DNA from: Bdellovibrionales bacterium
GTDB lineage: Bacteria; Bdellovibrionota; Bdellovibrionia; Bdellovibrionales; UBA1609
Length of the DNA: 64,000 nt
NCBI GenBank assembly: GCA_041740515.1
Contig: JBGSLV010000043.1
Coordinates: 27,594 to 91,593 of the forward strand
Direction of reading: 5' to 3'
Every line of letters begins with the position of its first letter. The first letter of the stretch is position 1. Below are positions 12,614 through 33,482 of this stretch, in pieces. The notes under the pieces were generated by a model. It did not search any database. It was not told where the DNA came from and worked only from the letters and a program-made list of their open reading frames with translations. A program made the position numbers and the translations under genes.

Positions 12614-13078
12614 TTATTTCCAAAGCGCAAGTTGTGTATCTGAAGGAATTCCATTTGCAAAGTTTGCATTAACATTTATTTTGGTAGCGCCATTTCGACT
12701 AGCAATGACAACAGAATTGTTATCAAATATTTTAAGCTGATTTATAAAATTAAACCCAGGATCAAGATAAAAGTTTGTCCATAATGGTTTTGGAATTTTA
12801 TTATTTTTCAAATATTCAAAAGTATTTTCAATTGGTTTTTCTCCAACAACAATTAAAAAGCTATATTTTTTTGTACTTACAAGCTTAAGGGCATTGTCTA
12901 AACATTTTGTACATGCACTTTTGATATATAAAACATTTTGCTTTGAATTTGAAGTTATCAATTCCACTTTGTTGGTATCTGATACAGATTGCAGCAAATA
13001 CAAAACTTCATTGGCCAACACAAATCGTGTAGACAAAAGAATAACAAAAATAAAAACATAAAACTTAGAAGATGTCAT
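12614..13078 (-). CDS. Secreted thioredoxin-fold (TlpA/redoxin-like) protein with a CxxC motif
   Basis: Signal peptide. VLYIKSACTKCLDNA (CTKC) is followed by a redoxin-like layout (FLIVVGEKP ... KIFDNNSVVIASRNGATKI). It starts 5 nt downstream of the pilin-like ORF. Confidence 0.45.
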   Translation of the reverse strand: MTSSKFYVFIFVILLSTRFVLANEVLYLLQSVSDTNKVELITSNSKQNVLYIKSACTKCLDNALKLVSTKKYSFLIVVGEKPIENTFEYLKNNKIPKPLWTNFYLDPGFNFINQLKIFDNNSVVIASRNGATKINVNANFANGIPSDTQLALWK

Positions 13079-13083
13079 ACATC

Positions 13084-13935
13084 TTAATTACCATACACTG
13101 GCTTAAACATATACACACCGTTTTCAAATTCTCCCACCGACATTAAAGTATCACGCTTATTATTTGGAAATTTTAAAGTAAATATTTTAGTGACTGTTTT
13201 ATAGGGGGAAGTAGTCCCTGGATTACAAATAGTCCCTGCCGTAATATCCCCTGTAGGTCCAAGACAATCAAAGGCGTTACTATTACTCATAGTGGGATAG
13301 ATACTAGTTACCTGCACTCTTATTGAATTTAAAATATTGTTTCTTGAAAATTGGGGCTGATCGATAATTAAATCAGAAATATTATCGAAGATCAGATCAG
13401 TATTGTCAGGAGCTACAACTCCGCTGGCATTGGCAGCCCCGAGGTCTATAACAATTCTAGACCCTCTTCGGGTGTTATCCATAGCTTCATTTTTTCTCAT
13501 GAAAAACACACCTGTTGGCCTGAATTGACTTTGTAGGTTTTCAGGATTGCCCGTTGTTGTTTGCGTCTCTCTGGCAAAAAACATTAGAGTATCACCCGGT
13601 AATGCCCCCAAAGAGGCATCATTGGTATAATTAAAAGTTTTAACAAACCCAGATCCATCAGCGGCTCCTTGTAGTCCATTTAAACTGGGTAGATTCGTAA
13701 AATGAACATTAACAGCTTGGGCCGCAAGCATTTTCCAAGTGTAGATTAAGCGTTCTAAATCTTTTTCGGCATCCGAAATCTTAACCTGCTTCATCCCCAC
13801 AGTTACCATATTTAAGCTGAGTAAAGATGCTGCTAAGAATATGGTGGAAGCAATAACAGCAGTTACTATCAACTCTATCAATGTGAATCCTGCAGATCTT
13901 ATGCTTTTATCCGAGGAAAGATTAGATGGACTCAT
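13084..13935 (-). CDS. Type IV pilin/pseudopilin-like protein (candidate internal start inside the 649-codon ORF)
   Basis: MSPSNLSSDKSIRSAG/FTLIELIVTAVIASTIFLAASLL is a textbook prepilin cleavage/methylation N-terminus. C-terminal Cys pair: FDCLGPTGDITAGTIC. Confidence 0.55.
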   Translation of the reverse strand: MSPSNLSSDKSIRSAGFTLIELIVTAVIASTIFLAASLLSLNMVTVGMKQVKISDAEKDLERLIYTWKMLAAQAVNVHFTNLPSLNGLQGAADGSGFVKTFNYTNDASLGALPGDTLMFFARETQTTTGNPENLQSQFRPTGVFFMRKNEAMDNTRRGSRIVIDLGAANASGVVAPDNTDLIFDNISDLIIDQPQFSRNNILNSIRVQVTSIYPTMSNSNAFDCLGPTGDITAGTICNPGTTSPYKTVTKIFTLKFPNNKRDTLMSVGEFENGVYMFKPVYGN

Positions 13936-15033
13936 GTCTTTTAAGGAGGTTTTTATATCCACATTTTTTAAGGACTGATTATTTAGATTAGGAGTTAATG
14001 GATCTAATACAAATTTATCTTTTATCATAACTTTCTGCTTCTTTAGAAATTTCATAATGTCATTTTTTATTAATCCAAAGGGGTGAAATAAATCATAAAA
14101 ATATGACTTAGGCATACGTCCTTCATGATCATTGATGCCAAACTTATATCTTTCTTTTCTTTGGGGTATATAAAGCGATCCAAGAATTACATCCCAAACT
14201 GAAAAAATAACCCCAAAATTTTTATTAAAATGTATTGAGTTTCGACTGTGATGAACTTGGTGCATATGGGGGCTGATTAAAATATAGCTTATAAATCGGC
14301 CATAATTGATTCGAATATGCGTATGTCGAACATGTTGAATAAAGCTAAAAATAAAATAGGTTATAATTAAAATGGTTAATTTAGTTTCTGAACTTCTACT
14401 GATATTAAAGGCAGTAGATAACATCAATAATCCGGGTATTTGCATAATGGCGATATTTACATATCCGATAATATAGGCCACAGGATGGGTTCTGGATTTT
14501 GTAATCGGACTTAGTACGGTGGCTCTATGATGAGTCATATGAAAGTACCAAATCCATGGAACTTTATGCTCTAAAAAATGAGCCACAAAATTGGTAAAAT
14601 CAATATATAACATTTGCAAAAGTGCATACAGATAAATACCATACACAGGATCTAACATAAAAACGGGCTGTTCAAACCTAAAGTACGAAAAACCTGCATA
14701 GGTGGTAAAAAAGTGTGTAATGTTATTAACGTTTAATAACAAAAAACCAAAATATATGGGTTTATATAAAATCCGCATCGAAAAATATAAACAATCTTTA
14801 ATGAATTCTTTTCGATATCTTTGGGATAAAACAAAAGACTTTATACGTTTTGGGTACGTTTTGGATTTATAAGATTTATAAGCAAAATATAATAACGCCA
14901 CAACCGCGCTGGATAAAAACCAATGGATATTAAATGGGTATTCTTTTTTAAACAGAACACCATTCCCAATATACATAAATTCTTTGTAGGCTAACGACCA
15001 ATAGTTAAGAACCAAATTTATTAGAAACTCCAT
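13084..15033 (-). CDS. Uninterrupted 649-codon ORF: fatty-acid hydroxylase/sterol-desaturase-type membrane enzyme followed in frame by a prepilin-type protein
   Basis: His boxes HFLEH, HMTHH, HVRHTH and HQVHH plus FSVWDVILGSLY in the first ~330 aa. No stop codon before the prepilin N-terminus at codon 367. Confidence 0.6.
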   Translation of the reverse strand: MEFLINLVLNYWSLAYKEFMYIGNGVLFKKEYPFNIHWFLSSAVVALLYFAYKSYKSKTYPKRIKSFVLSQRYRKEFIKDCLYFSMRILYKPIYFGFLLLNVNNITHFFTTYAGFSYFRFEQPVFMLDPVYGIYLYALLQMLYIDFTNFVAHFLEHKVPWIWYFHMTHHRATVLSPITKSRTHPVAYIIGYVNIAIMQIPGLLMLSTAFNISRSSETKLTILIITYFIFSFIQHVRHTHIRINYGRFISYILISPHMHQVHHSRNSIHFNKNFGVIFSVWDVILGSLYIPQRKERYKFGINDHEGRMPKSYFYDLFHPFGLIKNDIMKFLKKQKVMIKDKFVLDPLTPNLNNQSLKNVDIKTSLKDMSPSNLSSDKSIRSAGFTLIELIVTAVIASTIFLAASLLSLNMVTVGMKQVKISDAEKDLERLIYTWKMLAAQAVNVHFTNLPSLNGLQGAADGSGFVKTFNYTNDASLGALPGDTLMFFARETQTTTGNPENLQSQFRPTGVFFMRKNEAMDNTRRGSRIVIDLGAANASGVVAPDNTDLIFDNISDLIIDQPQFSRNNILNSIRVQVTSIYPTMSNSNAFDCLGPTGDITAGTICNPGTTSPYKTVTKIFTLKFPNNKRDTLMSVGEFENGVYMFKPVYGN

Positions 15034-15061
15034 AGGTGTCCTTTTTAACTAAGTGGTCTAG

Positions 15062-16543
15062 TTATGAAGGTCCAACGCCATCATCACCATCTGAACCATC
15101 ATGGTGCCCACCTGCATCCCCACCATCACCGGAGCTGCCATCACCATCACCGTCGCCCCCATCTGAAGGCGGTGGCGGTGGCGGAGGTGTATTGCACTGG
15201 TTGGCCATAGTTCGCCCCCCACCTGGGCACCAACCTCTGGATGGTGGTCGATTGATATAGGGAGCCGTGCAAGTTTCGCAATCTAAAGTGTTTTCCGGGG
15301 GCTGTGGTTCTGAAAGTAAGTAAGAGTTCAAAGTTACATTATGAGCCACATCAACAGCTTTGACTTCGATAGCCATATTGCAACCCAAACTAAGATTTGA
15401 ATAATTTAAATAATATCCATCACTGGCACCAAGAGCGGGATGTGATTCTGCATTCCACGGGTTGTTAGGAGGCTGACCACACAAAGTCACTTGGTTGCAG
15501 TTGACCCAATTGCCAGAGACTGCGAAGTTTTGGCGAGACCCACCACCCACACATTCCGCAGGAGGGGAAGGAAATCCGCCGGCATATATCGAAGCATCTC
15601 GACAAATAAGTGTTATAGCTTTGCCACTTTTTAAATTCGGTGAAACCCTAATATCTGCATTTACACTTCTAGATGTTGCACAGATTGGAATCCCGTCGGG
15701 TATTATGTCTCCGCTGATTAAAGCAGCGTCGTTCACATCATCTGATGGTATTTTTGGGTAATTAAAAGCTGTCGAAACTCGACAATTATGAGCTACGTTT
15801 TGACTGTCCACATAGGAAGTTGTAACGGTCACATAGAACCCTATGTCCGCTCTTGATCCTGGTTCTGGTTGAACTTGATTGCCAAGTAATTGTTGGGCTT
15901 GGGTTAGATTTATATTTAATCCTGCTGGTCTAATAATCAAAGGAATTCCAGGGCAACTTAAACTGCCATTGGTTAAATCAATAGCTTGGATTCTAATGCT
16001 TGTACTTACATTTCTTAAATGCCCGACAACACGGTTCTCGGATAAACTAGCGGCGGCTGCGCCTGAGTACACAATACCAATAGGACTATTACAGTAGTTA
16101 CCGTTACTGTTATACAATGAATTTAATAACGACATTGAACCGATAAGAGCTTTATGATTTTTTAAAATCAAAGCCGGTCCAACATTAGTCCATAACTGAG
16201 CATTGGCATTCAACCAATCTTCAGATAGAGCAATAAAATTTAAAGTATCTTCACTGCCACCTGTTGGTCGGGTCATTACATTGCCTGTAACATTTAAATT
16301 ATTGACAGACTTAACAATACCTACTGACTTAATTCTATCCATTACGTCTTGTGAGGTTTGGCTACACACTTTAAAGTGCGAGTTTTGAATCTGTGACATT
16401 CTAGCCGTACTAAAATAGCCAAAAAGAACTATAACGCCAGACAAAAGAGCTATAGCTACAACTGATTCCGCTATAGAAAATCCATTTATATTATTAGTGA
16501 TACTAATTTTATTTAACGTATTAGTTTTATTAAAATATCTCAT
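15062..16543 (-). CDS. Large Cys-rich pilin-like secreted protein with a poly-Pro and Gly/Asp/His-rich tail
   Basis: N-terminus NNING/FSIAESVVAIALLSGVIVLF is prepilin-like (G-F-S-I-x-E). Many Cys residues. The C-terminus is PPPPPPPSDGGDGDGDGSSGDGGDAGGHHDGSDGDDG. Confidence 0.55.
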   Translation of the reverse strand: MRYFNKTNTLNKISITNNINGFSIAESVVAIALLSGVIVLFGYFSTARMSQIQNSHFKVCSQTSQDVMDRIKSVGIVKSVNNLNVTGNVMTRPTGGSEDTLNFIALSEDWLNANAQLWTNVGPALILKNHKALIGSMSLLNSLYNSNGNYCNSPIGIVYSGAAAASLSENRVVGHLRNVSTSIRIQAIDLTNGSLSCPGIPLIIRPAGLNINLTQAQQLLGNQVQPEPGSRADIGFYVTVTTSYVDSQNVAHNCRVSTAFNYPKIPSDDVNDAALISGDIIPDGIPICATSRSVNADIRVSPNLKSGKAITLICRDASIYAGGFPSPPAECVGGGSRQNFAVSGNWVNCNQVTLCGQPPNNPWNAESHPALGASDGYYLNYSNLSLGCNMAIEVKAVDVAHNVTLNSYLLSEPQPPENTLDCETCTAPYINRPPSRGWCPGGGRTMANQCNTPPPPPPPSDGGDGDGDGSSGDGGDAGGHHDGSDGDDGVGPS

Positions 16544-16588
16544 ATTAATATCTTCTCATAGATTTGACTTTTGTCTACACGTCATAAA

Positions 16589-16604
16589 GCAGACTAATGT
16601 CTGC
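16589..16604 (-). terminator. Short hairpin between two pilin-cluster genes (possible attenuator or weak terminator)
   Basis: On the minus strand: GCAGAC-ATTA-GTCTGC followed by TTTAT. The stem is only 6 bp. Confidence 0.25.
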
Positions 16605-16636
16605 AAATCATAAAGTAGAGATTTTACGAGTAAGAT

Positions 16637-17410
16637 TTAATAGTGTCTTACGGCAAAAGTCTGGGTTATTTTTTGTTTACCGGTACAATTAGGCGAACCA
16701 TTTACACAAAATGATACATTAAAACACTCTGTATGATTTGTCTGACAGTTAACGAAATCAGTAACTCCATTACCACCAAAGTTAGGCGGGATTATAACAC
16801 GAGCTCCTGGAACGGTTTGACTTAAGCCAGCAGCAACAATAGGCGTTGTGTTGGGTTTGGCAACATAAACACCTTTAGTATAGCTACGCATTGGTACATA
16901 ACTTAGAGCACCCGTTTGATTAAATGTCGATCTATCAACAGCTGCTTCAAGAGGATTCAAGGGAGCAATTTCTGGTTCGGGAGCAGGACCAGGAGTAAAA
17001 AATTCTTCATCAACCACACCACCAAAAGCATTGGCTTTAGAAACAATTAAAGCTAATGGATTTACTTTGTGATTTATAAAAGCTAAAGACTGGGCGTTGG
17101 CTAAACAAATTTTATTACCACGCATTTGATCTGGACTAAAACATCTATTAGCATCTAAACCGGTCCAACAGAGTTTAAAAATATTTGGATTTAGGCCAAT
17201 CTCAACACTAGTTCCAGGGCAGCCTGCACTCTGTTGCCCCAAATCGTATGCGATTCTTACAACGGGTGCAATGGACAGTGCTAGCTCGGTTTTTTCGTAC
17301 ATCTCGCGATTTAATACATCAGATTTAACTTTTGCTTCGTAAGTTGTATTTATATTTGAAATAATCAAAGTATTTAACATTAAAATTCCAAGTACGAACA
17401 AAATTTGCAT
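16637..17410 (-). CDS. Membrane-anchored or secreted Cys-rich hypothetical protein, first gene of the pilin-like cluster
   Basis: Start placed at ATG 17410 (MQILFVLGILMLNTLIIS), with AGAGGA 5 nt upstream. Hydrophobic N-terminus. Cys-rich motifs CPGT, CWTG, NRC, ICLAN, and CQTNHTECFNVSFCVNGSPNC. Confidence 0.5.
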   Translation of the reverse strand: MQILFVLGILMLNTLIISNINTTYEAKVKSDVLNREMYEKTELALSIAPVVRIAYDLGQQSAGCPGTSVEIGLNPNIFKLCWTGLDANRCFSPDQMRGNKICLANAQSLAFINHKVNPLALIVSKANAFGGVVDEEFFTPGPAPEPEIAPLNPLEAAVDRSTFNQTGALSYVPMRSYTKGVYVAKPNTTPIVAAGLSQTVPGARVIIPPNFGGNGVTDFVNCQTNHTECFNVSFCVNGSPNCTGKQKITQTFAVRHY

Positions 17411-17673
17411 AAATTCCTCTTTGGTTAAAATCAAATATTTTTCATATTATCTTTTCGTCTAATTTAAGAGTTTTGATAAAATTTTAAACGATACAATGTA
17501 TTAATTTGAAACAGATGGTTTAGAAATAAAAAAAAAGCCCTTAAATTAATACTTAAATATGAATAAAAATAACAAGTTAACTGTTTTACCAATATTGTTA
17601 CAAGAATGTTTCAAGATCCAGTTTATTTTCAAGCCTGGATTTCCAAGTTGAAGTCTTTCAATAAGTCGACACT

Positions 17674-18954
17674 TTAAGGTCTAAGCAAAATGATAGGAGA
17701 TTTTTTGTTTAAAGCAATTATCAAATATTTCTTATCTACTCCCACTTGGCTGGATAAACCTTCATTAAATGAATATTTTTTTAATAATTTGAAACTCACA
17801 AAATCATAAATACAAACATCAGTTTTCGCACAAGGAGTGGCGACATATTTTTTACTCTTGTATTTTAGGATGACTGGGCTGGCTCTTTTTGTCTCTTTAC
17901 TCATGCTTAATTCATGAAAAGCAAGCCTTTGGCCTGTCTTCAAATCAATTTTATGCACACCAGTTTGATCATTTATAAATCCAAATGACAATTTTTGATC
18001 TATCGCCGGACTACTTTGATTAAATTCACTAAGCTTATATTGCCAATTTATAAGACCATTAGCTTTTTTCAAACTGTATAAATGACCATCCCATGAACTG
18101 ATGTAAATGTTTTCGTTATCCATGGCTGGCGTAGATTTAATAGGGCCGGCTAATTTTATTTCCCACATGATAGTTCCTGTAGTTTTGGACATAGCTTGAA
18201 ATTTATTATCATTGTCACCAAAATACAAATTTTCATTATCAACAGCCGGTGAAGAATGACTGTGATTACCAATGGGATTGCTGGCCCACACAAGAGACGT
18301 ATCCGATAAATTAATTTTCCCAATATAACCATTAGGATGTAAGGTTTCGACATTGTAATAAAGATAATGCGATTCTAACCAAGGGGTAGCTCCAAAAGAG
18401 TTGCCTAATTGTGCCATCCAAATAATTTTCTTCGCTTCAAGATTCAGAAGATATAGCCGCCCGGAGTATTCACCGATGATAGCGTAATCATTAAAAACAA
18501 TTGGCGTTCCATGAAACCCAAGATTTGAATTATATAGATGTAAAGACCAATGAAGTTTTTCTTGTTTAAAGACTTGAATGAGTCCCTGATCACCAGCCGA
18601 TACCATGAACTTACCATTACTTACGGGCGTAGATTTACTAGCACCATGCCCCCCATGATTAACAATAGTGTCATTCAGCATTTCAGATTTTAAGCTGAGG
18701 GGATCAAAATCAATCTCGTAGAAGCCTGTTCGATCAGCATCATTTCGATATTGAACGGAGGAATCCTTTAATCCCTTAATAAGGTTAGTATCTTTATTTA
18801 TTATAAAAAAATTGGGTTTAATAAAAACGAAACTTCGATAACTGTAGATTCCATAATTATAGAGTGTTGGATTTAAAAAAAATAAAATGAGTAGGGTTAA
18901 AAAAAGGGTACTAAAAGTATAGAAATAAAAAAACTTAAAGCTCTTTACAAACAT
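17674..18954 (-). CDS. PQQ-like (BamB-type) beta-propeller repeat protein with an N-terminal membrane anchor
   Basis: Repeated units such as ENLYFGDNDNKFQAMSKTTGTIMWEIKL and ENIYISSWDGHLYSLKKANGLINWQYKL. Confidence 0.7.
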   Translation of the reverse strand: MFVKSFKFFYFYTFSTLFLTLLILFFLNPTLYNYGIYSYRSFVFIKPNFFIINKDTNLIKGLKDSSVQYRNDADRTGFYEIDFDPLSLKSEMLNDTIVNHGGHGASKSTPVSNGKFMVSAGDQGLIQVFKQEKLHWSLHLYNSNLGFHGTPIVFNDYAIIGEYSGRLYLLNLEAKKIIWMAQLGNSFGATPWLESHYLYYNVETLHPNGYIGKINLSDTSLVWASNPIGNHSHSSPAVDNENLYFGDNDNKFQAMSKTTGTIMWEIKLAGPIKSTPAMDNENIYISSWDGHLYSLKKANGLINWQYKLSEFNQSSPAIDQKLSFGFINDQTGVHKIDLKTGQRLAFHELSMSKETKRASPVILKYKSKKYVATPCAKTDVCIYDFVSFKLLKKYSFNEGLSSQVGVDKKYLIIALNKKSPIILLRP

Positions 18955-20113
18955 TGTTGTAAGTCCTTACAAGAGTATATTCTTTATCTGTTGTTCGTGC
19001 TGACTCTAAGTAAAACAAAAACTTAGAGTTTGGATTTTTCTGACATAATCTTTGAAGAAATGTATCATAAACTATTGCGTCACAATGAATTCTAAGGAAA
19101 TTTACTATTTTGGGAATATTTAAAGCTACTATGCTTCCATCCGATTTTTCCTCAAGTAATGTATGTTGGCATTTAAGCTTAGAATCTAACATATTTAAGG
19201 TTTCATATCTTATATTTCCATCCATGGATGGATCTATTCCATAAAATTTGCTTGAAATATTCCAAACAATCATAAGCATTATAAAAAATATCGAAGCTCG
19301 TCGCCTAAAATTACTGTTGCCGAACTGCAGATCATTCAGAGTTGTAAAAGAATATTTTAATAATCCTGAATCATCATTTGTAAATTCATTAATAACAATA
19401 GGTAACAAAAGACCCATCATTATTAATGGATAATAAAACCCAACAATTAAAACTGAATACAAATGGAATATAATCAACTGTAATAAAGTAACTCGTCTTA
19501 AAAGGACGTTTTGAGATAGCAAACCCCAGATTAAAATAAGTTCTAGTACAGGGACATAAGCCAAACTTAATGTATGCCAAAAGCCGCTCAGCATGTAAGT
19601 GCTATAACTAACCAATGCGGCACCAGACAGCCACTCGATATTAAGTTTTAAAAGTCCTGCAAATACATATTGTAAAATTAGACCCAGTCGATAAAAATGA
19701 AAGGAACCCAAAGAAAGTATCGTTAAAATACTTAAACTTAAATGCATGGTATGGTAATTACCCATGAAATTATATCTTGATAAAAGGACTAATACTTTAA
19801 AAAAAGTAAGGGAATAAAAAATTAGCATATAAATCTTGGTTTTATCAAAAAGGACTAAAAACAGACCGATGACGCAAAAAAGAGCGTAAATATAAAAAAT
19901 ACTTTGAACATAAAATAAATTTTCAAAAGCTAATTCAAAGCAATTTCTAAAAACTGGAACACAGGCTACTTCATAATTTTCATTTGCAAATCTTAACCAA
20001 ACCTTACCTTTCAACCAGTATATCGCAGTTATAAAATGTGCAAAAAGAAGCCCAAAATAAATTGCCTTTTTTAAATAGTTCATTTTATAAGAATTAAAAG
20101 TTTGAAAGTTCAT
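18935..20113 (-). CDS. Polytopic membrane protein, possibly HTTM/VKGC-like, with a small C-terminal soluble domain
   Basis: About 8 hydrophobic spans. The NFMGNYHTMHLSLSILTIL segment is reminiscent of the HTTM N-x-Y-x-L region. The family call is weak. Alternative start at 20083. Confidence 0.4.
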   Translation of the reverse strand: MNFQTFNSYKMNYLKKAIYFGLLFAHFITAIYWLKGKVWLRFANENYEVACVPVFRNCFELAFENLFYVQSIFYIYALFCVIGLFLVLFDKTKIYMLIFYSLTFFKVLVLLSRYNFMGNYHTMHLSLSILTILSLGSFHFYRLGLILQYVFAGLLKLNIEWLSGAALVSYSTYMLSGFWHTLSLAYVPVLELILIWGLLSQNVLLRRVTLLQLIIFHLYSVLIVGFYYPLIMMGLLLPIVINEFTNDDSGLLKYSFTTLNDLQFGNSNFRRRASIFFIMLMIVWNISSKFYGIDPSMDGNIRYETLNMLDSKLKCQHTLLEEKSDGSIVALNIPKIVNFLRIHCDAIVYDTFLQRLCQKNPNSKFLFYLESARTTDKEYTLVRTYNNVCKEL

Positions 20114-20489
20114 ATTTGATTGTATTTTTAAATATTACATTTTTAAGGTTACATGTATTTATATTAGTAAAACTTAGATCTGAATCCAAAAAAATTACAG
20201 TATTCAAACTACAATTGCTAAAGTAGGCCCCTTGAAGTGAAGCTCCTTTTAAGACTGTATTTTCGATATTTAGACCATTAAACTTGACGGCTTCAGCTTT
20301 GAGACCAACAATTTCTGAATTTATAATCTTTAGATTTTGGATTTTTTTAGTCTTTAAATACAAAATGAATACATTGACCGAATCTAAAATTTGATCATTT
20401 TCTGCAATTGAGATCTTGTCATAAGTCTTATTGGGGTCCAAACCATAAATGTTTGAAAATAGTAAGTAGCTAGCCACTATAAGTATCAT
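20094..20489 (-). CDS. Secreted pentapeptide-repeat protein
   Basis: LKGASLQGAYFSNCSLNTVIFLDSDLSFTNINTCNLKNVIF. Start moved to ATG 20489 (MILIVASYLLFSNIYG signal-like). Confidence 0.7.
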   Translation of the reverse strand: MILIVASYLLFSNIYGLDPNKTYDKISIAENDQILDSVNVFILYLKTKKIQNLKIINSEIVGLKAEAVKFNGLNIENTVLKGASLQGAYFSNCSLNTVIFLDSDLSFTNINTCNLKNVIFKNTIKYELSNF

Positions 20490-20645
20490 AGTAAAATGAT
20501 AGATTTTAACATCGATTATGCAAGTTAAATAAAATCTTAGTTTTAAATTAACAACAGGCTTGAGTCGGTAGTTAAGTGTAAAAACTAGTATGGAGTCATA
20601 ATATATCAATTAAATTGTAGTAACAACGACTTGATCTGACAGCTA

Positions 20646-20751: not shown

Positions 20752-22077
20752 TTAAAAAAAACTACCTATAGACTTGGCACTAAAGACCTGCTTTTGAAAT
20801 ATATATTTATCAGGATCTATATTTGATTTGTTTAAAGTTAGAATTAAGTCACTGATTGATTCTGGAACAAGTAACACATTAGAAAAACCAAATCTTACAA
20901 GGGTTTTATAAACATTGATCGATTTGTTGGGGTCAAGCATATGATGTCCAACAAGATATAATTTATCGTCTTTGGAAATCTTATCTAGTCCAGTTAACAT
21001 ATAGTTGCCAGTAACTTTATTTTCCTTAACTAGTCTATTATATGACTCTTGAGTATAAGTTCTTAAATAGTACTGTTTAAATCCCTCAACAGAAAGCTTT
21101 TCAGGATAAAGTGGAATAGAGTTTTTAAAATGTATAGTCTCAAATGCATCTGGATCGGAGACATCAATAATTTTAAATTTGTCATTGGACTTAAGACTAG
21201 TCAGTAATTGCTCTTGGGATGCAATTTTAGTTCGTTTAAAGACCTCAGCCATTGTTTTTTCTTTATTATTAACCCATTTTTTATCTGCGTCTTTAAACCA
21301 ATATACATTCTTCGCATTTTTTGTATAAAGTTTACTGATCAAATTATAGCCTTTGAAAGTATTTTTATATGTTGAGAACACAACGATATCGTTATTATTT
21401 AATGGTGTTTTCAAATTCGTATCAAAAAGTAAGTCTAAAAGATTAAATTTAGTATCTTTAGGTAAAATATCATTTGCGATTATGGCTTTTGGGAAAAAAT
21501 ATCCGTCCTGATCAGAAAAGGTATAAAATTCAACATTACTCTTGGCGTAGAATTGAATCAGCTGTTTATAATCTATAACTTTGGCATTCCAATGATTTTT
21601 GGGAAAAAGGTTTGGATTCCAAAGTGTCTTAACTTTACTATTTATAAGTTCACCGACTATAAATTGGATTTTTTTATCTTTTTCATTCAAAAGTTTAGAA
21701 TTGTAAATTCCGAAGATAAAATCAGTAAGTAGATAGGGATTCGTTATTTTCTTTACAGTTTCGTGAAAAGTCCTAATCAAATTATTAGGTTCATTAGATT
21801 TTATAGTGATATCATTGTAATAATAAAATTTGCTCATTTTAAATTTTAAAACACCAAATTCTTTACCTTCTAAATTTAAGACTTTAAAATCCTTGGTTAT
21901 CGCACAGATTGAACTCGGCAAAGGAATAATCTTTGATCCATTTTGACTAAAGTAAAAATTAATAAGCTCATCCGGCCATTTTAAATCACTCAAAACTGTA
22001 CAAGCTTCCGCTTTATTTGCGAAAACAAAAAATGTCATGGTGAGTAAAAATATAACATAGTTGCATTTGGATTTCAT
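20752..22077 (-). CDS. Secreted hypothetical protein, possibly with two degenerate rhodanese-homology domains
   Basis: Signal peptide. KIIDVSDPDAFETIHFKNSIPL ... LYLVGHHMLDPNKS..LVRFGFSNVLLV resembles a rhodanese layout without the catalytic Cys. A similar unit lies upstream (VVFSTYKN..NAKNVYWFKD). Confidence 0.35.
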   Translation of the reverse strand: MKSKCNYVIFLLTMTFFVFANKAEACTVLSDLKWPDELINFYFSQNGSKIIPLPSSICAITKDFKVLNLEGKEFGVLKFKMSKFYYYNDITIKSNEPNNLIRTFHETVKKITNPYLLTDFIFGIYNSKLLNEKDKKIQFIVGELINSKVKTLWNPNLFPKNHWNAKVIDYKQLIQFYAKSNVEFYTFSDQDGYFFPKAIIANDILPKDTKFNLLDLLFDTNLKTPLNNNDIVVFSTYKNTFKGYNLISKLYTKNAKNVYWFKDADKKWVNNKEKTMAEVFKRTKIASQEQLLTSLKSNDKFKIIDVSDPDAFETIHFKNSIPLYPEKLSVEGFKQYYLRTYTQESYNRLVKENKVTGNYMLTGLDKISKDDKLYLVGHHMLDPNKSINVYKTLVRFGFSNVLLVPESISDLILTLNKSNIDPDKYIFQKQVFSAKSIGSFF

Positions 22078-22413: not shown

Positions 22414-22923
22414 TTAATTTCCAGAGTTATTTTTAACGCTTGCTTTCCCGACATTAGCGCCCTCTGTGTATTGTAAATCAACATTATCAAATTGAAGTGT
22501 GAAATTTTCGGTTAAACGCTCTTCGCCACCCGATCCACCGCTTGCTACAGATGTGATCAGAACTTTATTCATTGTGAATTTTATGGTCATTGCATTTTCG
22601 ACTTCAAGAACAACTTTTGAAATTTTTGTTTTCTGGCTTAGTAATTTAATAATCTCAGCTGATTCTGGACCAACAAATTTAGTAAATGACATATCTTGAA
22701 CTTTTAAATCTCTTGATTGCTTTGATTCCGAATCTTCTGAAATATTACTAACTCCCCAACTCCAAGCTAAAATCTCGACTGGTTTTTGCAAATTGGTAAC
22801 ATTCATGGATTTGTCCGTTTCAAAAGAAAGTTTCATTTTTGTACCTCTTCGAGGTGAACTCTCTTGACCAGCTAATGTAAAACAAAAGGTAAAAGTAATA
22901 AGGAATATAAATATATTTTTCAT
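22414..22923 (-). CDS. Hcp-family (type VI secretion tube protein) homologue with an apparent N-terminal signal peptide
   Basis: Blocks VEILAWSWGVSN, LKVQDMSFTKF and ITSVASGGSGGEERLTENFTLQF match Hcp1 hallmark blocks as I recall them. MKNIFIFLITFTFCFTLAGQ precedes the Hcp core. Alternative leaderless start at 22836. Confidence 0.8.
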   Translation of the reverse strand: MKNIFIFLITFTFCFTLAGQESSPRRGTKMKLSFETDKSMNVTNLQKPVEILAWSWGVSNISEDSESKQSRDLKVQDMSFTKFVGPESAEIIKLLSQKTKISKVVLEVENAMTIKFTMNKVLITSVASGGSGGEERLTENFTLQFDNVDLQYTEGANVGKASVKNNSGN

Positions 22924-23112: not shown

Positions 23113-24564
23113 TTACCAACGACAGCTGTTTATGTTATCCGCATTTGCAATAAAACTGTAATTATAAGTTTTATAAAAGAACCAACTTTTTTTAGGACCA
23201 AGGAATTGCTTTATATTCAAATTGGTCAATTTATGTATTTCACCACTTTCAGATTTTACAATAAGATTAAAATTTTGTAGCTTATCTAACTTACGTGCCC
23301 TTTCATAGGCAAGATCAAGTCCTGATTTAGTAATCCAGTCCGATGTTTGTCTAACTTCCGTAAAAATAGATTCGTCATAAGAGCTAAGTACTTGGTAAAG
23401 CTCGCTCTCGTATCCAAATAAATCAATTTTTTTCATAAAAAAATGATTATTGTAGGAACCCGCAAACTTAAGATTTGAGAACATGGTGAAGTTCCCTGCC
23501 GAACGATAGCCAAAATAGATAGAAGTGCTAAATAAACAAAGCAAAATTAATGGTCCTAATTTAAGAGTATCAATTGATGAAAAATTTAAATACCTTTCGA
23601 AAGAATGCCTTTTAATTATATGCTTACTACTCAAATAAATCAGATTCATCGTAATAACGATAAGGATTAATCCTTGTAAAGACTGCAAGGTCTGTTTGAT
23701 TTCTGGAAACACATAAGCACCTATCAAACTTATACCAATAAGGACATAAGAGCTTATAAAATGCAGATAAATAATTTTAATCCAAACATCGAAACTAGAA
23801 ATAACAAGAGGCAAAAATAGAAATAATAAAGCCATAGCCAATGATGAAAAGTCTGCAAACCCACCAAGGGCCAAATAGGAATGCAAAAAGAGCAACATAA
23901 GTAGACCATAGTTTCTATATCGTTTCATCAATAACAAGGTGGGTGCCAATAGTTCCAGTGCACCTACAATTTTGGGGGAAATACTTTTAATAAATACAGG
24001 TATATCATTTAAGTCGATATTATTAAAAAACCGACTAAAAAGCTTTAAGTGGTACCAAGTGGTGCAAGATTTATCAGGATTATAAAAATCAACATTCATT
24101 TTATGCAAAGCAGCGCTATAGTATAAAATGACCAATGCACTTAACAAAAAAATTTTATTTTCAAAAAGATTAAGGTAAATATTTTCATATTTTATAAAAT
24201 TCACAAAATAGAATACAAAAATTAAAAAAAGCAAAAATGTATTAAAATTAGTATGATTGGCCCCATAGGGCCAATGATTAATTATATGAAATAACAGTAA
24301 AGAACAGAAAAAAATAAATAATAGGTTGATATAAAAAAAGAATCTATTAGAACTCTCTATGTGACAGTTTTTTATGGCTTTAAAAAATCGATACGCCAAA
24401 TAATGAAAAGCTAAAAGAAAAACAAATAATACTTTCTCTGCATAGTCGTTTTGGAAGTACTCAAAAAAATGATAAACTTGTGCGGTAACGTAAGACAGAA
24501 TAAAGCCTAAGTCATAAATATTAGACTTTATTGGGATGGCTTTTCTGTTCAAACATAAAGTCAA
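23113..24564 (-). CDS. Polytopic membrane protein, possibly HTTM/VKGC-like, with a C-terminal soluble domain
   Basis: More than 8 hydrophobic spans. WPYGANHTNFNTFLLFLIF and AGNFTMFSNLKFAGSYNNHFF segments. The family call is weak. Confidence 0.4.
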   Translation of the reverse strand: MTLCLNRKAIPIKSNIYDLGFILSYVTAQVYHFFEYFQNDYAEKVLFVFLLAFHYLAYRFFKAIKNCHIESSNRFFFYINLLFIFFCSLLLFHIINHWPYGANHTNFNTFLLFLIFVFYFVNFIKYENIYLNLFENKIFLLSALVILYYSAALHKMNVDFYNPDKSCTTWYHLKLFSRFFNNIDLNDIPVFIKSISPKIVGALELLAPTLLLMKRYRNYGLLMLLFLHSYLALGGFADFSSLAMALLFLFLPLVISSFDVWIKIIYLHFISSYVLIGISLIGAYVFPEIKQTLQSLQGLILIVITMNLIYLSSKHIIKRHSFERYLNFSSIDTLKLGPLILLCLFSTSIYFGYRSAGNFTMFSNLKFAGSYNNHFFMKKIDLFGYESELYQVLSSYDESIFTEVRQTSDWITKSGLDLAYERARKLDKLQNFNLIVKSESGEIHKLTNLNIKQFLGPKKSWFFYKTYNYSFIANADNINSCRW

Positions 24565-24573
24565 TGTATGCCT

Positions 24574-24759
24574 TTAAAATAATTTTTTAAATAGTAAATA
24601 TTCAGACAAAGTATTATCTGCTTTCGACCAAGAATTTTGAATATCATTAGAAAAAGTAACTAGACCATAGTCAGGTTCCAATAAAAAACCTATAAACTCT
24701 TTAGCATTAGCTTTTAGCCCAATAATCAATATAAAAATAGAAAGCAAAGTCTTGAACAT
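24574..24759 (-). CDS. Small secreted protein (61 aa) ending 9 nt upstream of the 483-aa membrane protein gene
   Basis: Signal peptide MFKTLLSIFILIIGLKANA followed by about 40 residues. Tight spacing suggests co-transcription. Confidence 0.4.
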   Translation of the reverse strand: MFKTLLSIFILIIGLKANAKEFIGFLLEPDYGLVTFSNDIQNSWSKADNTLSEYLLFKKLF

Positions 24760-24960
24760 AAATAAATACTTTACGATATAAGTATATTTGTAAAGAACAA
24801 AACCTTAATTAATTCCCTATTTAAATTTATCAACTACTCCAAAAAAATTGGAACTAATTTTTTATAATTCCAATACTTGGTATATATCTTAACTTAAACT
24901 AAAAAACGCAAAAGCTAAAATGCTATTGTTATTTCTATCAATTACATCGAGGATAAATGT

Positions 24961-25377
24961 GTGCGAGCTCAACTTAATCATTTGTTTTTATTATTAATCC
25001 TAGCCCTCGGCTTGGCAGGACCCGTGTCAATGTTAATCTTTGAGTACAATCCCCTGTTTTTTATTTCTCCAGCGCCAAGTGTTTTTACCTATCAAAAAAA
25101 ATATCCCAATCAAATTGAATTTATAAGATATGCCTCAAATGGACCTTACGATAGTATTAAAATGAATCGTGATTTTTATAAAAAAATGATTGGACCACAT
25201 AGATATAAAGTGCTTTTTAATTCACTAATGAAACGTGGCGAAAGGCTAGTGCATTCCAAAAATTATAAAGTTTTTATAAAAAATTTTATCTGTAAACACA
25301 ATACTGATTTAACTTTGTTAAAAGTAGAAATTGTAAAAAACAAAAAAATCTTAAATGTGATCGATTGTCATGGATAA
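24961..25377 (+). CDS. Small membrane-anchored hypothetical protein (position suggests an SdpA-like partner)
   Basis: GTG start with GAGGA 7 nt upstream. One N-terminal hydrophobic span. Overlaps the next gene by 8 nt. Confidence 0.4.
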   Translation: MRAQLNHLFLLLILALGLAGPVSMLIFEYNPLFFISPAPSVFTYQKKYPNQIEFIRYASNGPYDSIKMNRDFYKKMIGPHRYKVLFNSLMKRGERLVHSKNYKVFIKNFICKHNTDLTLLKVEIVKNKKILNVIDCHG

Positions 25378-26188
25378 ACAACAAATTGAAATCAAAACTA
25401 TTCAAATCACTATAGTCTTTCTGGCTATCTACTACCTGTTATATTCTTTATATGAGCTACCTTTTGTCATTGATATGTACTCATGTGCAAGGCTTAATAT
25501 TTGTATTTATAGCGAATTAAACTTATCAAATTTCTATATATTTTTTTTTCAAGTTCTAAAAATTTTTTCCTCCCTGCTTCTCTTTAACAAAAAATTTTAT
25601 AAATTTGCTCTTTTTAATATTTTATCAACTAACATACTTTTTATGTTTGCAAATAAACTTTTACACTCCCCAGAGCAAGGCTACTTAAATTTTTTACTTC
25701 TTATACTTTTGTTATATAAGAATCCAAATAGTCCAGATCATGAATCTTCACCTCATCAAGTTTTTAATTTAAGGCTTACAAAGATTTATATTTTTGTTTT
25801 TTACTTAGCCTACAGTTTCTCTGGATTTACCAAATATCGAACTGACGCTTGGATGGATGGATCTTTTATGAATAATTTTTTTGCTCATAATCATTTGATT
25901 TATAATACCATTTTTTTAGAATTCCTTTCCACCGCTGTGAAAAGTGCCATGACCTATTTTACGGTTTTTATTGAGTTGTTTTCCTTTCTTGCAATTACTA
26001 ATCGCATTTTAGCCCTATTTTTTTGGCTAAATCTCACAATCATTCAAATTGGCCTAATTTTTTGGGCCGATTTATGGCAAGTAAATCTAGGTATGCTAAT
26101 CTGTCATTTTTTTGTTATGGATAATGGTCTTTTAATCGGTATAAAAAAACTTTTACATTCTCTTAAATTTAAAATCTTTAAAATATGA
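25370..26188 (+). CDS. Polytopic membrane protein, possibly SdpB/HTTM-like
   Basis: Several hydrophobic spans. The LHSPEQGYLNFLLLILLLYK segment resembles the HTTM core. Translationally coupled to the 138-aa gene. Confidence 0.4.
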   Translation: MDKQQIEIKTIQITIVFLAIYYLLYSLYELPFVIDMYSCARLNICIYSELNLSNFYIFFFQVLKIFSSLLLFNKKFYKFALFNILSTNILFMFANKLLHSPEQGYLNFLLLILLLYKNPNSPDHESSPHQVFNLRLTKIYIFVFYLAYSFSGFTKYRTDAWMDGSFMNNFFAHNHLIYNTIFLEFLSTAVKSAMTYFTVFIELFSFLAITNRILALFFWLNLTIIQIGLIFWADLWQVNLGMLICHFFVMDNGLLIGIKKLLHSLKFKIFKI

Positions 26189-32792: not shown

Positions 32793-33482
32793 TTATTTAA
32801 AAATCATTCCTAAGCCACCATAAGGTGCAACGAATTTACTATCGCCAGAGTCACCCCATGGGAAAATATAAGCTCCGCCAAGTGTTAAGGAAAACCCAAA
32901 GGTAGGTCGAAACCAAAAGGTGTTTGAGACGGTCAAAGAGGCGTAGTAGTAATCGCCGGTCTCAGTCAATTGTAACGAGTATAAATCTTCAAAGTCCTGA
33001 GCCACTTCGGCATCAATATCTCGACTGATGTTGGTGTAATTAAATCTTGGAACTAGCGCGAGTTCGTAAAACCCATATTTACGACCCCAAACCATACCGC
33101 CGTAGCCGTAAGCACCTTGAGTCGTTAATCCCCCCCCACCAAGAAGTGACCCACTCCATTGATCCTCAGAATACTCAGTCGCTTGAAGTAGGATTCGAGC
33201 TCCCATAGAAAAACCTTTGATCTGAGATTCCATCTGTAGACCTAAGTCAAATGTTTCGCCAACACCCATTGTATAAACATAACCTATGTAAGGGTACCCC
33301 GCCGTAGTACTATGCGACTGATTGCCTTTCCCAAGAGTTTGAGGGCTTACAGGATCACTAAGAGGTGCAAAAGAACAGTTTGTGAGAAAACCTAAACACA
33401 ATAACCAAATTAAATAACTAATAGGTTTCCAGCTAGCATGAGTCTGCAATTTTAAAGGCAAGCAATTAAACAATAATTTCAT
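32793..33482 (-). CDS. Gly/Tyr-rich putative outer-membrane lipoprotein (beta-barrel-like)
   Basis: LGFLTNC lipobox-like signal. Alternating aromatic/Gly composition. Confidence 0.4.
   Translation of the reverse strand: MKLLFNCLPLKLQTHASWKPISYLIWLLCLGFLTNCSFAPLSDPVSPQTLGKGNQSHSTTAGYPYIGYVYTMGVGETFDLGLQMESQIKGFSMGARILLQATEYSEDQWSGSLLGGGGLTTQGAYGYGGMVWGRKYGFYELALVPRFNYTNISRDIDAEVAQDFEDLYSLQLTETGDYYYASLTVSNTFWFRPTFGFSLTLGGAYIFPWGDSGDSKFVAPYGGLGMIFK

What the first reader, a model, noticed from the sequence alone, without database searches (positions are those of the whole stretch)
24574..26188. Possible SdpA/SdpB-like peptide-maturation pair facing a small secreted peptide and a second HTTM-like protein
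Two gene pairs diverge from a 200-nt AT-rich region.

On the plus strand, a 138-aa single-span protein overlaps a 272-aa polytopic protein by 8 nt. That size and order recall the SdpA/SdpB antimicrobial-peptide export/maturation families, and SdpB is HTTM-related.

On the minus strand, a 61-aa protein with a signal peptide ends 9 nt before a 483-aa HTTM-like membrane protein.

If the family assignments hold, the 61-aa product is a candidate processed or secreted peptide (toxin or signal). Its maturation machinery would be encoded on both sides.
Basis: inference. Interest (0 to 1): 0.55.

Follow-up and report, generated by a model that had tools for sequence, protein, structure and literature searches.

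The report
Split carboxylase-like membrane enzyme cluster
The gene pair encodes a very divergent, truncated relative of the vitamin K-dependent carboxylase plus a small membrane-anchored partner, inside a conserved predatory-bacterium (Bdellovibrionales) cluster with two more such enzymes; the 61-aa "peptide" gene is not a conserved part of it.

Summary
All four ORFs exist exactly as described.

(1) HTTM-like: supported, but only remotely. The 272-aa, 483-aa and a third 392-aa protein (18935-20113) hit no Pfam or NCBIfam model directly. Profiles built from their relatives reach human gamma-glutamyl carboxylase (GGCX), and the catalytic Lys218 and Asp263 (as Glu) equivalents are conserved in all three.

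(2) SdpA/SdpB pair: not supported as family membership. There is no TIGR04033/04034 hit, no SdpC-like precursor and no SdpI/R. The 138-aa protein belongs to a new 8-member family. It is always translationally coupled (8-11 nt overlap) to the 272-aa gene, an architecture like SdpA+SdpB or DUF5819+HTTM.

(3) 61-aa substrate: not supported. It is absent from every related locus, where the divergent gap is 45-100 nt rather than 396 nt. It may still be a real orphan gene.

The real feature is a conserved 7-gene (probably 11-gene) envelope cluster in uncultured Bdellovibrionales. It contains three HTTM paralogs, a BamB-like propeller, a pentapeptide protein, a secreted 441-aa protein, Cys-rich pilin-like proteins and a fatty-acid hydroxylase. 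Most likely it is a periplasm-facing, quinol/O2-dependent modification machine; its substrate is unknown. I rate it a new variant of a known kind, of moderate interest.

The parts
24961..25377 (+). p138: single-span (TM about residues 7-27, N-in) protein with a ~110-aa periplasmic alpha/beta domain. Invariant motifs SPAPSVFTY and GPHRYKV.FNS.M.RG.RLV, and two invariant Cys (C111, C136). A new family; the proposed partner subunit of the 272-aa HTTM protein.
   Evidence: only 8 clusters in 5.8e9 proteins, all on cluster-bearing contigs; AF2 pLDDT 76.5; no PDB fold match; no SdpA or DUF5819 hit; 8-11 nt overlap with the downstream gene in every locus.
25370..26188 (+). tm272: truncated, highly divergent HTTM (GGCX-like) membrane protein. 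K155=GGCX K218, W161=W223, E202=D263. The N159/H160 dyad is replaced by E102/Q103 (invariant SPEQ) and F299 by V238.
   Evidence: top 12 PDB fold hits all GGCX, prob 0.72-0.98; E=2.4e-11 with the A3 profile; top viral fold hit is the Yasminevirus epoxidase-desaturase.
23113..24564 (-). tm483: HTTM-like polytopic protein with a conserved C-terminal extension (GNFTMFSNL...NH motif, C-terminal CRW). N103/H104=N159/H160, K155=K218, E204=D263, H228=H287, F239 approximately F299.
   Evidence: A2 21.6 bits against a maximum of 7.6 in shuffles.
24574..24759 (-). orf61: lineage-specific 61-aa ORF with a signal-peptide-like N-terminus. Not a conserved cluster component; possibly an orphan gene. In frame with tm483 (one TAA plus 3 codons between them).
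24760..24960 (.). AT-rich divergent spacer. Together with orf61 it forms a 396-nt gap that is 45-100 nt in all relatives.
20752..22077 (-). p441: secreted (signal peptide) conserved cluster protein with invariant C26/C58. The C-terminal rhodanese-like domain is a weak match and lacks an active-site Cys. Co-occurs with p138/tm272.
20094..20609 (-). Pentapeptide-repeat protein. The true start is probably 20489, giving 131 aa as in the orthologs. N-terminal hydrophobic segment; 20-nt overlap with tm392.
18935..20113 (-). tm392: third HTTM-like paralog (SRYNFMGNYHTMHLS; QYFFAGLLKLN.EW; E191; H217) with a Cys-rich C-terminal soluble domain.
   Evidence: hhalign against the tm483 family: prob 86%, E=5.6e-6; empirical p about 0.001 against GGCX.
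17674..18954 (-). BamB/PQQ_2-type beta-propeller with an N-terminal signal or anchor; 20-nt overlap with tm392.
12614..17434 (-). Conserved left flank, probably part of the same system: 154-aa secreted CxxC protein (12614-13078); 649-aa OlsE-like fatty-acid hydroxylase fused to a prepilin-type segment (13084-15033); 493-aa pilin-like protein with 14 Cys (15062-16543); 265-aa protein with 8 Cys (16637-17434).
   Evidence: All four conserved in L007 and L008, and two of them also at the cut ends of L001/L005, whereas the right flank differs in every locus.
22414..22923 (-). Hcp-like ORF with a signal-peptide-like N-terminus. A window-specific insertion between p441 and tm483, not part of the conserved cluster.

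Best explanation
The 138-aa and 272-aa genes form a translationally coupled two-subunit module.

[quoted passage not shown] It keeps the residues that deprotonate and oxygenate the quinol (Lys155 = K218, Glu202 = D263, Trp161 = W223). It has lost the Asn-His dyad and the Phe of the Glu/CO2 pocket, and it lacks any lumenal domain.
- The 138-aa protein is a new-family, single-span protein whose disulfide-capable domain faces the periplasm. I infer that it docks on the 272-aa core and supplies the missing extramembrane substrate-handling module. DUF5819 is predicted to do this for bacterial HTTM proteins, and SdpA may do so for SdpB.
- This module is an accessory part of a conserved Bdellovibrionales envelope cluster. 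The core of that cluster is a pentapeptide protein, a 392-aa HTTM paralog and a BamB-like propeller, all translationally coupled. It is joined by a 483-aa HTTM paralog with a near-complete carboxylase-type catalytic set, a secreted 441-aa protein, and neighbouring Cys-rich pilin-like proteins and a fatty-acid hydroxylase.

Proposed mechanism: at the periplasmic face, each HTTM paralog uses a reduced membrane quinone plus O2 to generate a strong base or oxygenated intermediate. That intermediate drives a C-H-activating modification (carboxylation-like for the 483- and 392-aa proteins, epoxidase-type only for the 272-aa protein) of exported substrates, most plausibly the co-encoded secreted or pilin-like proteins.

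The 61-aa ORF is a lineage-specific addition and is not the substrate.

Shown: the ORFs, their conservation, the coupling, superfamily homology and residue conservation. Inferred: complex formation, quinone dependence, topology of action, and substrate.
For: - HTTM homology of tm272. The A1 profile finds 298 relatives. Of 108 sampled, 28 hit PF05090, 13 hit TIGR04033 weakly, 21 are DCC1 fusions and 4 hit LMF1. The A3 profile hits GGCX at E=2.4e-11. The profile of the unannotated clade (A9) scores 25.1 bits against a maximum of 15.0 in 2000 shuffles. The AF2 model's top 12 PDB matches are all GGCX, and its top viral match is the Yasminevirus epoxidase-desaturase, prob 1.00.
- tm483. tm392.
- Catalytic residue mapping.
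- Coupling and co-occurrence of p138 and tm272: an 8-11 nt overlap in all 7 loci and the same contigs. A distant cluster, L013, also has a single-TM 191-aa gene overlapping a 272-like HTTM gene.
- Cluster conservation.
- Precedents: the DUF5819+HTTM split GGCX-like complex and the fused MloH; truncated K218/D263E epoxidase-like domains; GGCX residue roles.
- orf61 absent from relatives.
Against: - No direct Pfam or NCBIfam hit for any of the three HTTM-like proteins. The six close tm272 orthologs alone give no signal against GGCX, and the default PDB search with A9 found nothing.
- The tm272 model has low confidence (pLDDT 63; TM-scores 0.35-0.41).
- p138 has no detectable sequence or fold similarity to SdpA, DUF5819, GGCX or anything in PDB. 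Its homology to the L013 partner is not significant (E=0.1).
- A p138-tm272 complex was not modelled.
- No substrate, quinone-recycling enzyme (VKOR) or Gla-like motif was identified.
- tm272 lacks the N-H dyad and the pocket Phe, so it may be non-catalytic.
- Linkage of the left-flank genes could partly reflect shared ancestry of closely related genomes.
Confidence: 0.55

Rival explanations
1. Lipid-modification module. The HTTM paralogs act only as quinol epoxidase/electron modules that feed or cooperate with the neighbouring OlsE-like fatty-acid hydroxylase to remodel envelope lipids, as proposed for the giant-virus epoxidase-desaturase fusions. Proteins are not the substrate.
For: A FA_hydroxylase/OlsE-like gene is conserved beside the cluster in the window, L007 and L008. 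Three of 108 remote tm272 relatives are HTTM-FA_hydroxylase fusions and one is an Lnt fusion. The best viral fold match of tm272 is exactly such a fusion. tm272 keeps K218/D263E but lacks the carboxylation-specific residues, like the viral enzymes.
Against: The hydroxylase is four genes away from the nearest HTTM gene and about 10 kb from tm272. tm483 retains the Asn-His dyad and pocket Phe that bind the Glu carboxylate and CO2 in GGCX. The cluster is rich in secreted and Cys-rich proteins and has a periplasmic partner (p138) more suggestive of protein handling. L013 and L004/L005 are cut before the relevant flank, so linkage is shown only in three related genomes.
Confidence: 0.2
2. Redox or chaperone role without C-H activation. 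The HTTM paralogs act like LMF1 or DCC1-linked HTTM proteins in oxidative folding (disulfide formation or quality control) of the co-encoded Cys-rich pilin-like proteins. p138 (2 invariant Cys) and the CxxC protein relay electrons to the quinone pool.
For: Twenty-one of 108 remote relatives carry DCC1-like thiol-disulfide oxidoreductase domains and 4 hit LMF1. Neighbours have 14 and 8 Cys, there is a secreted CxxC protein, and invariant Cys pairs occur in p138, p441 and the tm392 tail.
Against: The conserved residues are the Lys/Glu pair used for quinol deprotonation and epoxidation, not a membrane-embedded Cys pair as in DsbB or VKOR. The cell has a separate DsbA-like gene (33637-34416). No thioredoxin-fold HMM hit for the 154-aa protein or for p138.
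Confidence: 0.15
3. One reading: an SdpAB-like toxin or signal peptide maturation system in which the 61-aa secreted product is processed by machinery encoded on both sides.
For: The gene order (small gene, then an overlapping HTTM gene) resembles sdpAB. Some remote relatives hit TIGR04033 weakly. orf61 has a signal-peptide-like N-terminus, an ORF length seen in only about 3.5% of shuffles, and gene-like codon usage.
Against: orf61 is absent from all six related full clusters and from L013; their gaps are too short to hold it. It has no SD. There is no SdpA or SdpB HMM hit, no SdpC-like ~200-aa precursor and no SdpI/SdpR. A conserved machine cannot depend on a substrate gene present in only one lineage.
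Confidence: 0.04

Closest known systems
[quoted passage not shown]
   Same: Homologous polytopic core. The catalytic K218 and D263 (as Glu) are conserved in all three paralogs, and W223 in two. tm483 also keeps N159/H160, H287 and probably F299. Fold matches.
   Different: Sequence identity is only 12-15%, with no direct Pfam hit. tm272 stops right after the membrane core (no lumenal or clamp domains) and lacks the N-H dyad and pocket Phe. There are three paralogs in one bacterial operon set. No Gla-type substrate or VKOR was identified.
DUF5819 + HTTM(-DCC1) predicted split GGCX-like complex, and fused MloH of malonomycin biosynthesis (bioRxiv 10.64898/2026.08.19.745780)
   Same: An adjacent small protein with an N-terminal TM helix plus an extramembrane domain, next to an HTTM membrane protein. 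The Lys...Trp spacing of 6 is the same as in tm272. DCC1-fused HTTM proteins are among the remote tm272 relatives.
   Different: p138 does not match the DUF5819 model and is smaller (~110 against ~155-aa domain). tm272 has no DCC1 domain. The complex was not modelled here.
B. subtilis SdpA/SdpB (and YitP/YitO) toxin-maturation pair
   Same: Small gene followed by an HTTM-related polytopic gene. SdpB-family models weakly hit some remote relatives. SdpAB act on an exported protein.
   Different: No TIGR04033 or TIGR04034 hit for the window proteins or their orthologs. No SdpC-like precursor and no SdpI/R immunity. Different phylum (Gram-negative predator MAGs). Embedded in a much larger cluster.
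Giant-virus truncated gamma-carboxylase-like epoxidase (VKE) fused or adjacent to sterol desaturase and VKOR (bioRxiv 10.64898/2026.03.26.714578)
   Same: A truncated HTTM core retaining K218 with D263 changed to Glu and lacking the carboxylation region. Association with a FA_hydroxylase-family enzyme. The Yasminevirus protein is the best viral fold match of tm272.
   Different: Here the hydroxylase is a separate gene several kb away. No VKOR is adjacent. The context is a bacterial periplasm, with a dedicated single-span partner.
Lipase maturation factor LMF1 / DoxX-clan membrane proteins
   Same: Weak HMM hits among relatives (LMF1 4/108; DoxX 1/108 and 1/19). Polytopic quinone- or redox-linked membrane proteins.
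   Different: Not the best match. No direct hits to the window proteins.

Membership tests
SdpB family (NCBIfam TIGR04033) | Match to the family HMM | tested here: not met
   No hit at E<=1 for tm272 or tm483. None among 10 of its nearer relatives (P0039-P0051). Only 13 of 108 remote relatives hit weakly, best E=4.4e-6.
SdpB family (NCBIfam TIGR04033) | Adjacent SdpA-family gene | tested here: not met
   None of the 8 members of the p138 family hits TIGR04034 or any SdpA model at E<=10.
Sdp-type toxin system | Adjacent SdpC-like precursor (~200 aa, signal peptide, hydrophobic C-terminal toxin region) | tested here: not met
   No such gene in the cluster. The only candidate, orf61, is 61 aa, has no hydrophobic C-terminus and is not conserved.
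Sdp-type toxin system | SdpI/SdpR-type immunity and regulator pair nearby | tested here: not met
   Pfam and NCBIfam scans of the ORFs of at least 120 aa between about 7.2 and 35.3 kb that were not already identified as pyruvate dehydrogenase E2/E3 or LipA found none.
HTTM superfamily (PF05090 / GGCX-like) | Direct match to PF05090 above the gathering score | tested here: not met
   No hit at E<=1 for tm272, tm483 or tm392.
HTTM superfamily (PF05090 / GGCX-like) | Profile-level (transitive) homology to HTTM proteins or GGCX | tested here: met
   tm483: A2 against PDB GGCX E=0.01; 21.6 bits against a maximum of 7.6 in shuffles. tm272; A3 against GGCX E=2.4e-11; A9 25.1 bits against a maximum of 15.0. 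tm392: hhalign prob 86%, empirical p about 0.001.
HTTM superfamily (PF05090 / GGCX-like) | Conserved catalytic Lys (GGCX K218) with its acidic helper (D263) | tested here: met
   tm272 K155/E202, tm483 K155/E204, tm392 K156/E191. All are invariant in their families.
HTTM superfamily (PF05090 / GGCX-like) | GGCX-like transmembrane fold | tested here: inconclusive
   The tm272 model has pLDDT 63. Its top 12 PDB hits are all GGCX (prob 0.72-0.98) but with TM-scores of only 0.35-0.40. Top viral hit has prob 1.00. tm483 and tm392 were not modelled.
Bona fide vitamin K-dependent carboxylase (GGCX/MloH-type activity) | Glu/CO2-pocket residues N159, H160, F299 | tested here: not met
   For tm272 these are E102/Q103 and V238. 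tm483 does keep N103/H104 and probably F239.
Bona fide vitamin K-dependent carboxylase (GGCX/MloH-type activity) | Extramembrane (lumenal/clamp) domain including the region 374-418 required for carboxylation | tested here: not met
   tm272 ends at residue 272, just after the membrane core. Whether p138 substitutes for the domain is inferred, not shown.
Bona fide vitamin K-dependent carboxylase (GGCX/MloH-type activity) | Quinol/O2-dependent epoxidation and substrate carboxylation | not testable with these tools
   Requires biochemistry.
DUF5819-HTTM split complex | Adjacent partner with an N-terminal TM helix plus an extramembrane domain | tested here: met
   p138 has a TM helix at 2-26 and an alpha/beta domain. 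The 8-11 nt overlap is conserved.
DUF5819-HTTM split complex | Partner matches the DUF5819 model | tested here: not met
   No Pfam hit for any of the 8 p138-family members at E<=10.
DUF5819-HTTM split complex | Confident predicted heterodimer resembling whole GGCX | not testable with these tools

The most novel reading that the evidence does not exclude
Predatory Bdellovibrionales carry a dedicated periplasmic post-translational modification factory built from three specialised GGCX-like enzymes. Two have fused extramembrane domains and one is split into core plus partner. The factory uses membrane quinol and O2 to carboxylate, or otherwise C-H-functionalise, Cys-rich pilin-like surface proteins. 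This would be the first multi-paralog bacterial counterpart of vitamin K-dependent protein modification, acting on the cell surface or predation apparatus.
Probability: 0.2. Interest if true: 0.75.

Novelty: new variant of a known kind. Interest (0 to 1): 0.45.

Why it matters
Bacterial HTTM/GGCX-like proteins are abundant but almost entirely uncharacterised; MloH and SdpB are the only functional footholds. This locus offers three things.

- It defines an unannotated clade of ~260-290-aa "mini-HTTM" proteins (about 48 representative clusters at E<=1e-10) that current Pfam and NCBIfam models miss.
- It adds a new partner family that, like DUF5819 or SdpA, may complete a split carboxylase-like enzyme.
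- It provides a natural comparison of three paralogs with graded retention of the carboxylase catalytic set in one operon set, linked to pilin-like proteins and a lipid hydroxylase in predatory bacteria.

If the chemistry is confirmed, vitamin K-type C-H activation would extend to the Gram-negative periplasm. For annotation, the analysis also shows that the tempting RiPP or toxin reading of the 61-aa ORF is not warranted.

Tried and rejected
- My by-eye impression that the p138 domain is homologous to the C-terminal soluble domains of tm392 or tm483 (a split-versus-fused relationship): hhalign E=0.63 and 0.38, rejected.
- p138 against the L013 191-aa partner: collinear (TM helix, SPAPS/SPLPR, GPHR/GHHR) but E=0.1, so not claimed as homology.
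- p138 fold against PDB: no match, all prob <0.1.
- Pairwise BLASTP among the three polytopic proteins: nothing significant. Only profiles reveal the relationship.
- PDB searches with A1 alone and with A9 under default filters: no hits. The signal appears only with deeper profiles or with --max, and was then validated by shuffles.
- p441 and tm392 profiles against PDB: nothing useful.
- The listing of cluster members gave no names or accessions. The exact look-up of P0001 found no record.
- The metagenome scan returned only 2 loci.
- Rfam on the intergenic region: nothing. The promoter and terminator scan was no better than shuffles.
- Perez Morales et al. 2013 (PMC3697648) is not held, so SdpA topology could not be checked.
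- orf61 as an N-terminal extension of tm483 (same frame, one stop between them): rejected, because the orthologs start where tm483 starts.
Full report
**OBSERVATION**

- orf61 at 24574-24759 (-)
- a 483-aa ORF at 23113-24564 (-, TTG start)
- a 138-aa ORF at 24961-25377 (+, GTG start)
- a 272-aa ORF at 25370-26188 (+)

The 138/272 overlap is 8 nt. orf61's stop is 9 nt from the 483-aa start. The divergent spacer is 201 nt, within a 396-nt gap of 24% GC. The 138-aa gene has a good GAGGA Shine-Dalgarno sequence. orf61 has none.

**DIRECT FAMILY TESTS**

Neither Pfam nor NCBIfam gives any hit at E<=1 for the 138-, 272-, 61- or 483-aa proteins: no PF05090, TIGR04033 or TIGR04034. Remote homology needed deeper testing.

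**THE 483-aa PROTEIN**

It has 20 relatives in 5.8 billion clusters. Two distant ones carry PF05090. The family profile (A2) hits human gamma-glutamyl carboxylase in PDB at E=0.01.

The alignment spans the core. The invariant N103-H104 falls on GGCX N159-H160. The invariant K155 (HKLN.DF) falls on the catalytic K218 (VKKLDADW). E204 falls on D263 and H228 on H287.

Against 2000 shuffled GGCX fragments, the real score (21.6 bits) exceeds the maximum (7.6). So "HTTM-like" is right, at superfamily level.

**THE 272-aa PROTEIN**

The word-indexed search found only six clusters. A profile of these, searched exhaustively against 1.84 billion representatives, finds 298 relatives (48 at E<=1e-10).

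The 20 nearest are unannotated proteins of about 250-340 aa, most of them 260-290 aa. The ten nearest have no HTTM hit in Pfam and ten further ones have no hit in NCBIfam. This is an uncharacterised "mini-HTTM" clade.

Among 108 sampled relatives:
- 28 hit PF05090
- 13 hit TIGR04033 weakly (best E=4.4e-6)
- 21 carry DCC1-like domains
- 4 hit LMF1
- 3 are FA_hydroxylase fusions

Further evidence:
- The 108-sequence profile (A3) hits GGCX at E=2.4e-11.
- A profile of only the unannotated clade (A9) scores 25.1 bits on the GGCX core, against a maximum of 15.0 in 2000 global or local shuffles. The default-filter PDB search with A9 returned nothing, and the six orthologs alone carry no signal.
- The AF2 model has low confidence (pLDDT 63). 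Even so, its top 12 PDB matches are all GGCX (prob 0.72-0.98, TM-scores 0.35-0.40).
- Its best viral match (prob 1.00) is the Yasminevirus "desaturase" A0A5K0UBG6. That is the published truncated epoxidase-desaturase fusion.

Residue mapping: K155=K218, W161=W223, E202=D263. N159/H160 are replaced by E102/Q103 (invariant "SPEQ"), H287 by Q226 and F299 by V238. The protein ends just after the membrane core. It therefore keeps the quinol-activating pair and lacks the carboxylation-specific residues and domains.

**A THIRD PARALOG**

The 392-aa ORF at 18935-20113 has the motifs SRYNFMGNYHTMHLS and QYFFAGLLKLN.EW. It aligns to the 483-aa family with hhalign probability 86%, E=5.6e-6. It reaches GGCX at an empirical p of about 0.001.

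**THE 138-aa PROTEIN**

Its family has eight members, all on contigs that also carry the cluster. No member hits SdpA, DUF5819 or anything else at E<=10.

The AF2 model (pLDDT 76.5) shows a TM helix (2-26) plus a small alpha/beta domain. It has no PDB fold match. Invariant motifs are SPAPSVFTY, directly after the TM helix, and GPHRYKV.FNS.M.RG.RLV. Two Cys are invariant.

Its gene overlaps the 272-aa gene by 8 or 11 nt in every locus. A distant cluster (L013) likewise has a 191-aa single-span gene overlapping a 272-like HTTM gene by 11 nt. Homology between the two partners is not significant.

This architecture parallels SdpA-SdpB. It parallels even more closely the DUF5819+HTTM pairs recently predicted to form a split GGCX-like complex, which is fused in the carboxylase MloH.

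**THE 61-aa ORF**

It has no homolog in any of 15 related loci and no paralog in the window. The equivalent gap is 45-100 nt in six independent clusters, against 396 nt here. There is no Rfam element.

It is not clearly spurious. Only about 3.5% of shuffles give an ORF that long, and its codon score (0.26) is typical of real genes. It may therefore be a lineage-specific orphan.

It is in frame with the 483-aa ORF, separated by one stop. The orthologs show no N-terminal extension. It cannot be the conserved substrate of a conserved machine.

**CONTEXT**

Related loci come from uncultured Bdellovibrionales and Pseudobdellovibrionaceae MAGs. The conserved cluster, in order, is:
- (-) BamB/PQQ_2 propeller
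- (-) tm392
- (-) pentapeptide-repeat protein
- (-) secreted 441-aa protein
- (-) tm483
- divergent (+) p138
- (+) tm272

This is supported. The first three genes overlap each other by 20 nt.

L008 has tm483 plus the core triad but lacks p441, p138 and tm272. L013 has the triad plus the p138-like/tm272-like pair but lacks tm483 and p441. So the 138/272 pair is an accessory module of a pentapeptide-HTTM-propeller core.

The left flank is also conserved: all four genes in L007 and L008, and two of them at the cut ends of L001/L005. It holds a secreted CxxC protein, an OlsE-like fatty-acid hydroxylase fused to a prepilin-type segment (TIGR02532 above its cutoff), a pilin-like 493-aa protein with 14 Cys, and a 265-aa protein with 8 Cys. 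The right flank differs in every locus.

No SdpC, SdpI or SdpR-like genes occur within about 12 kb.

**INTERPRETATION**

The best-supported reading is that p138+tm272 is a split, truncated GGCX-like module. It sits in a periplasm-facing, quinol/O2-dependent modification system with two more complete HTTM paralogs. The system would act on exported substrates, most plausibly the co-encoded secreted or pilin-like proteins.

Shown: gene structure, conservation, coupling, superfamily homology and catalytic-residue conservation. Inferred: complex formation, cofactor, chemistry and substrate.

Rivals:
- a lipid-modification role with the FA hydroxylase (supported by fusions among relatives and the viral precedent)
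- an LMF1/DCC1-like oxidative-folding role

**VERDICT**

This is a new variant of a known kind: HTTM/GGCX-like enzymes with a new partner family and a three-paralog cluster. Interest is moderate, because the function remains inferential and the exciting peptide-substrate idea fails.

Noticed in passing
window 22414-22923 (-): A 169-aa Hcp-like ORF (Pfam T6SS_HCP, E=3.4e-12, above cutoff) carries a signal-peptide-like N-terminus, which is unusual for Hcp. It is a window-specific insertion between the 441-aa and 483-aa cluster genes and is absent from all relatives.
   Followed up: partly
window 13084-15033 (-): A single 649-aa ORF fuses an OlsE-like fatty-acid hydroxylase (residues ~133-319) to a prepilin-type N-terminal cleavage/methylation motif (AGFTLIELIV, residues 381-402; TIGR02532 above cutoff) and a pilin-like C-terminal half. 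The fusion is contiguous and conserved in L007 (73% id) and L008 (50% id). Prepilin-peptidase cleavage in the middle of a membrane enzyme would be very odd.
   Followed up: partly
window 15062-16543 (-) and 16637-17434 (-): The 493-aa protein has a pilin-like N-terminus (GFSIAES; weak ComGE hit), 14 Cys and a Pro/Gly/Asp-rich tail. The 265-aa protein has 8 Cys. Neither has a Pfam family. Both are conserved next to the HTTM cluster, and the 265-aa gene is relocated upstream of tm483 in L008.
   Followed up: partly
window 12614-13078 (-): A 154-aa secreted protein with a CTKC (CxxC) motif and no Pfam or NCBIfam hit, conserved at the end of the extended cluster in L007 and L008. It may be a novel periplasmic thiol-disulfide oxidoreductase.
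   Followed up: no
window 24564-24759 (-): orf61 and the 483-aa ORF are in the same reading frame, separated only by TAA plus three codons. The orthologs show no N-terminal extension, so this is probably coincidental (1 in 3).
   Followed up: yes
window 20094-20609 (-): The listed 171-aa pentapeptide ORF probably starts at the internal Met at 20489, giving 131 aa as in the orthologs. The 20-nt overlaps propeller/tm392 (18935-18954) and tm392/pentapeptide (20094-20113) are conserved in the relatives, which suggests tight translational coupling.
   Followed up: partly
window 20752-22077 (-): The 441-aa secreted protein has a borderline rhodanese-like C-terminal domain (21.8 bits against a cutoff of 22.2). 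The active-site Cys position reads VGHH, so it is likely a catalytically inactive rhodanese homology domain.
   Followed up: partly
L013 1-5018 (metagenome contig JAAHTH010000524.1): A distant variant of the cluster (23-28% identity): propeller, 392-like HTTM, 227-aa pentapeptide protein, then a divergent 191-aa single-span partner overlapping a 288-aa mini-HTTM. This shows the pairing logic extends beyond the close relatives.
   Followed up: partly
L014 3722-4316: In the closest relative's contig, the right flank of the 272-like gene carries a Gp49/HTH (HigB/HigA-like) toxin-antitoxin pair. This is another sign that this flank is variable.
   Followed up: no
window 33637-34416 (-) and 32793-33482 (-): A DsbA-like thioredoxin protein (Thioredoxin_4, E=1e-20) lies next to an unannotated 229-aa ORF. 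I did not check whether the neighbour is a DsbB/VKOR-type quinone-linked partner, which would be relevant to quinone redox cycling in this organism.
   Followed up: no
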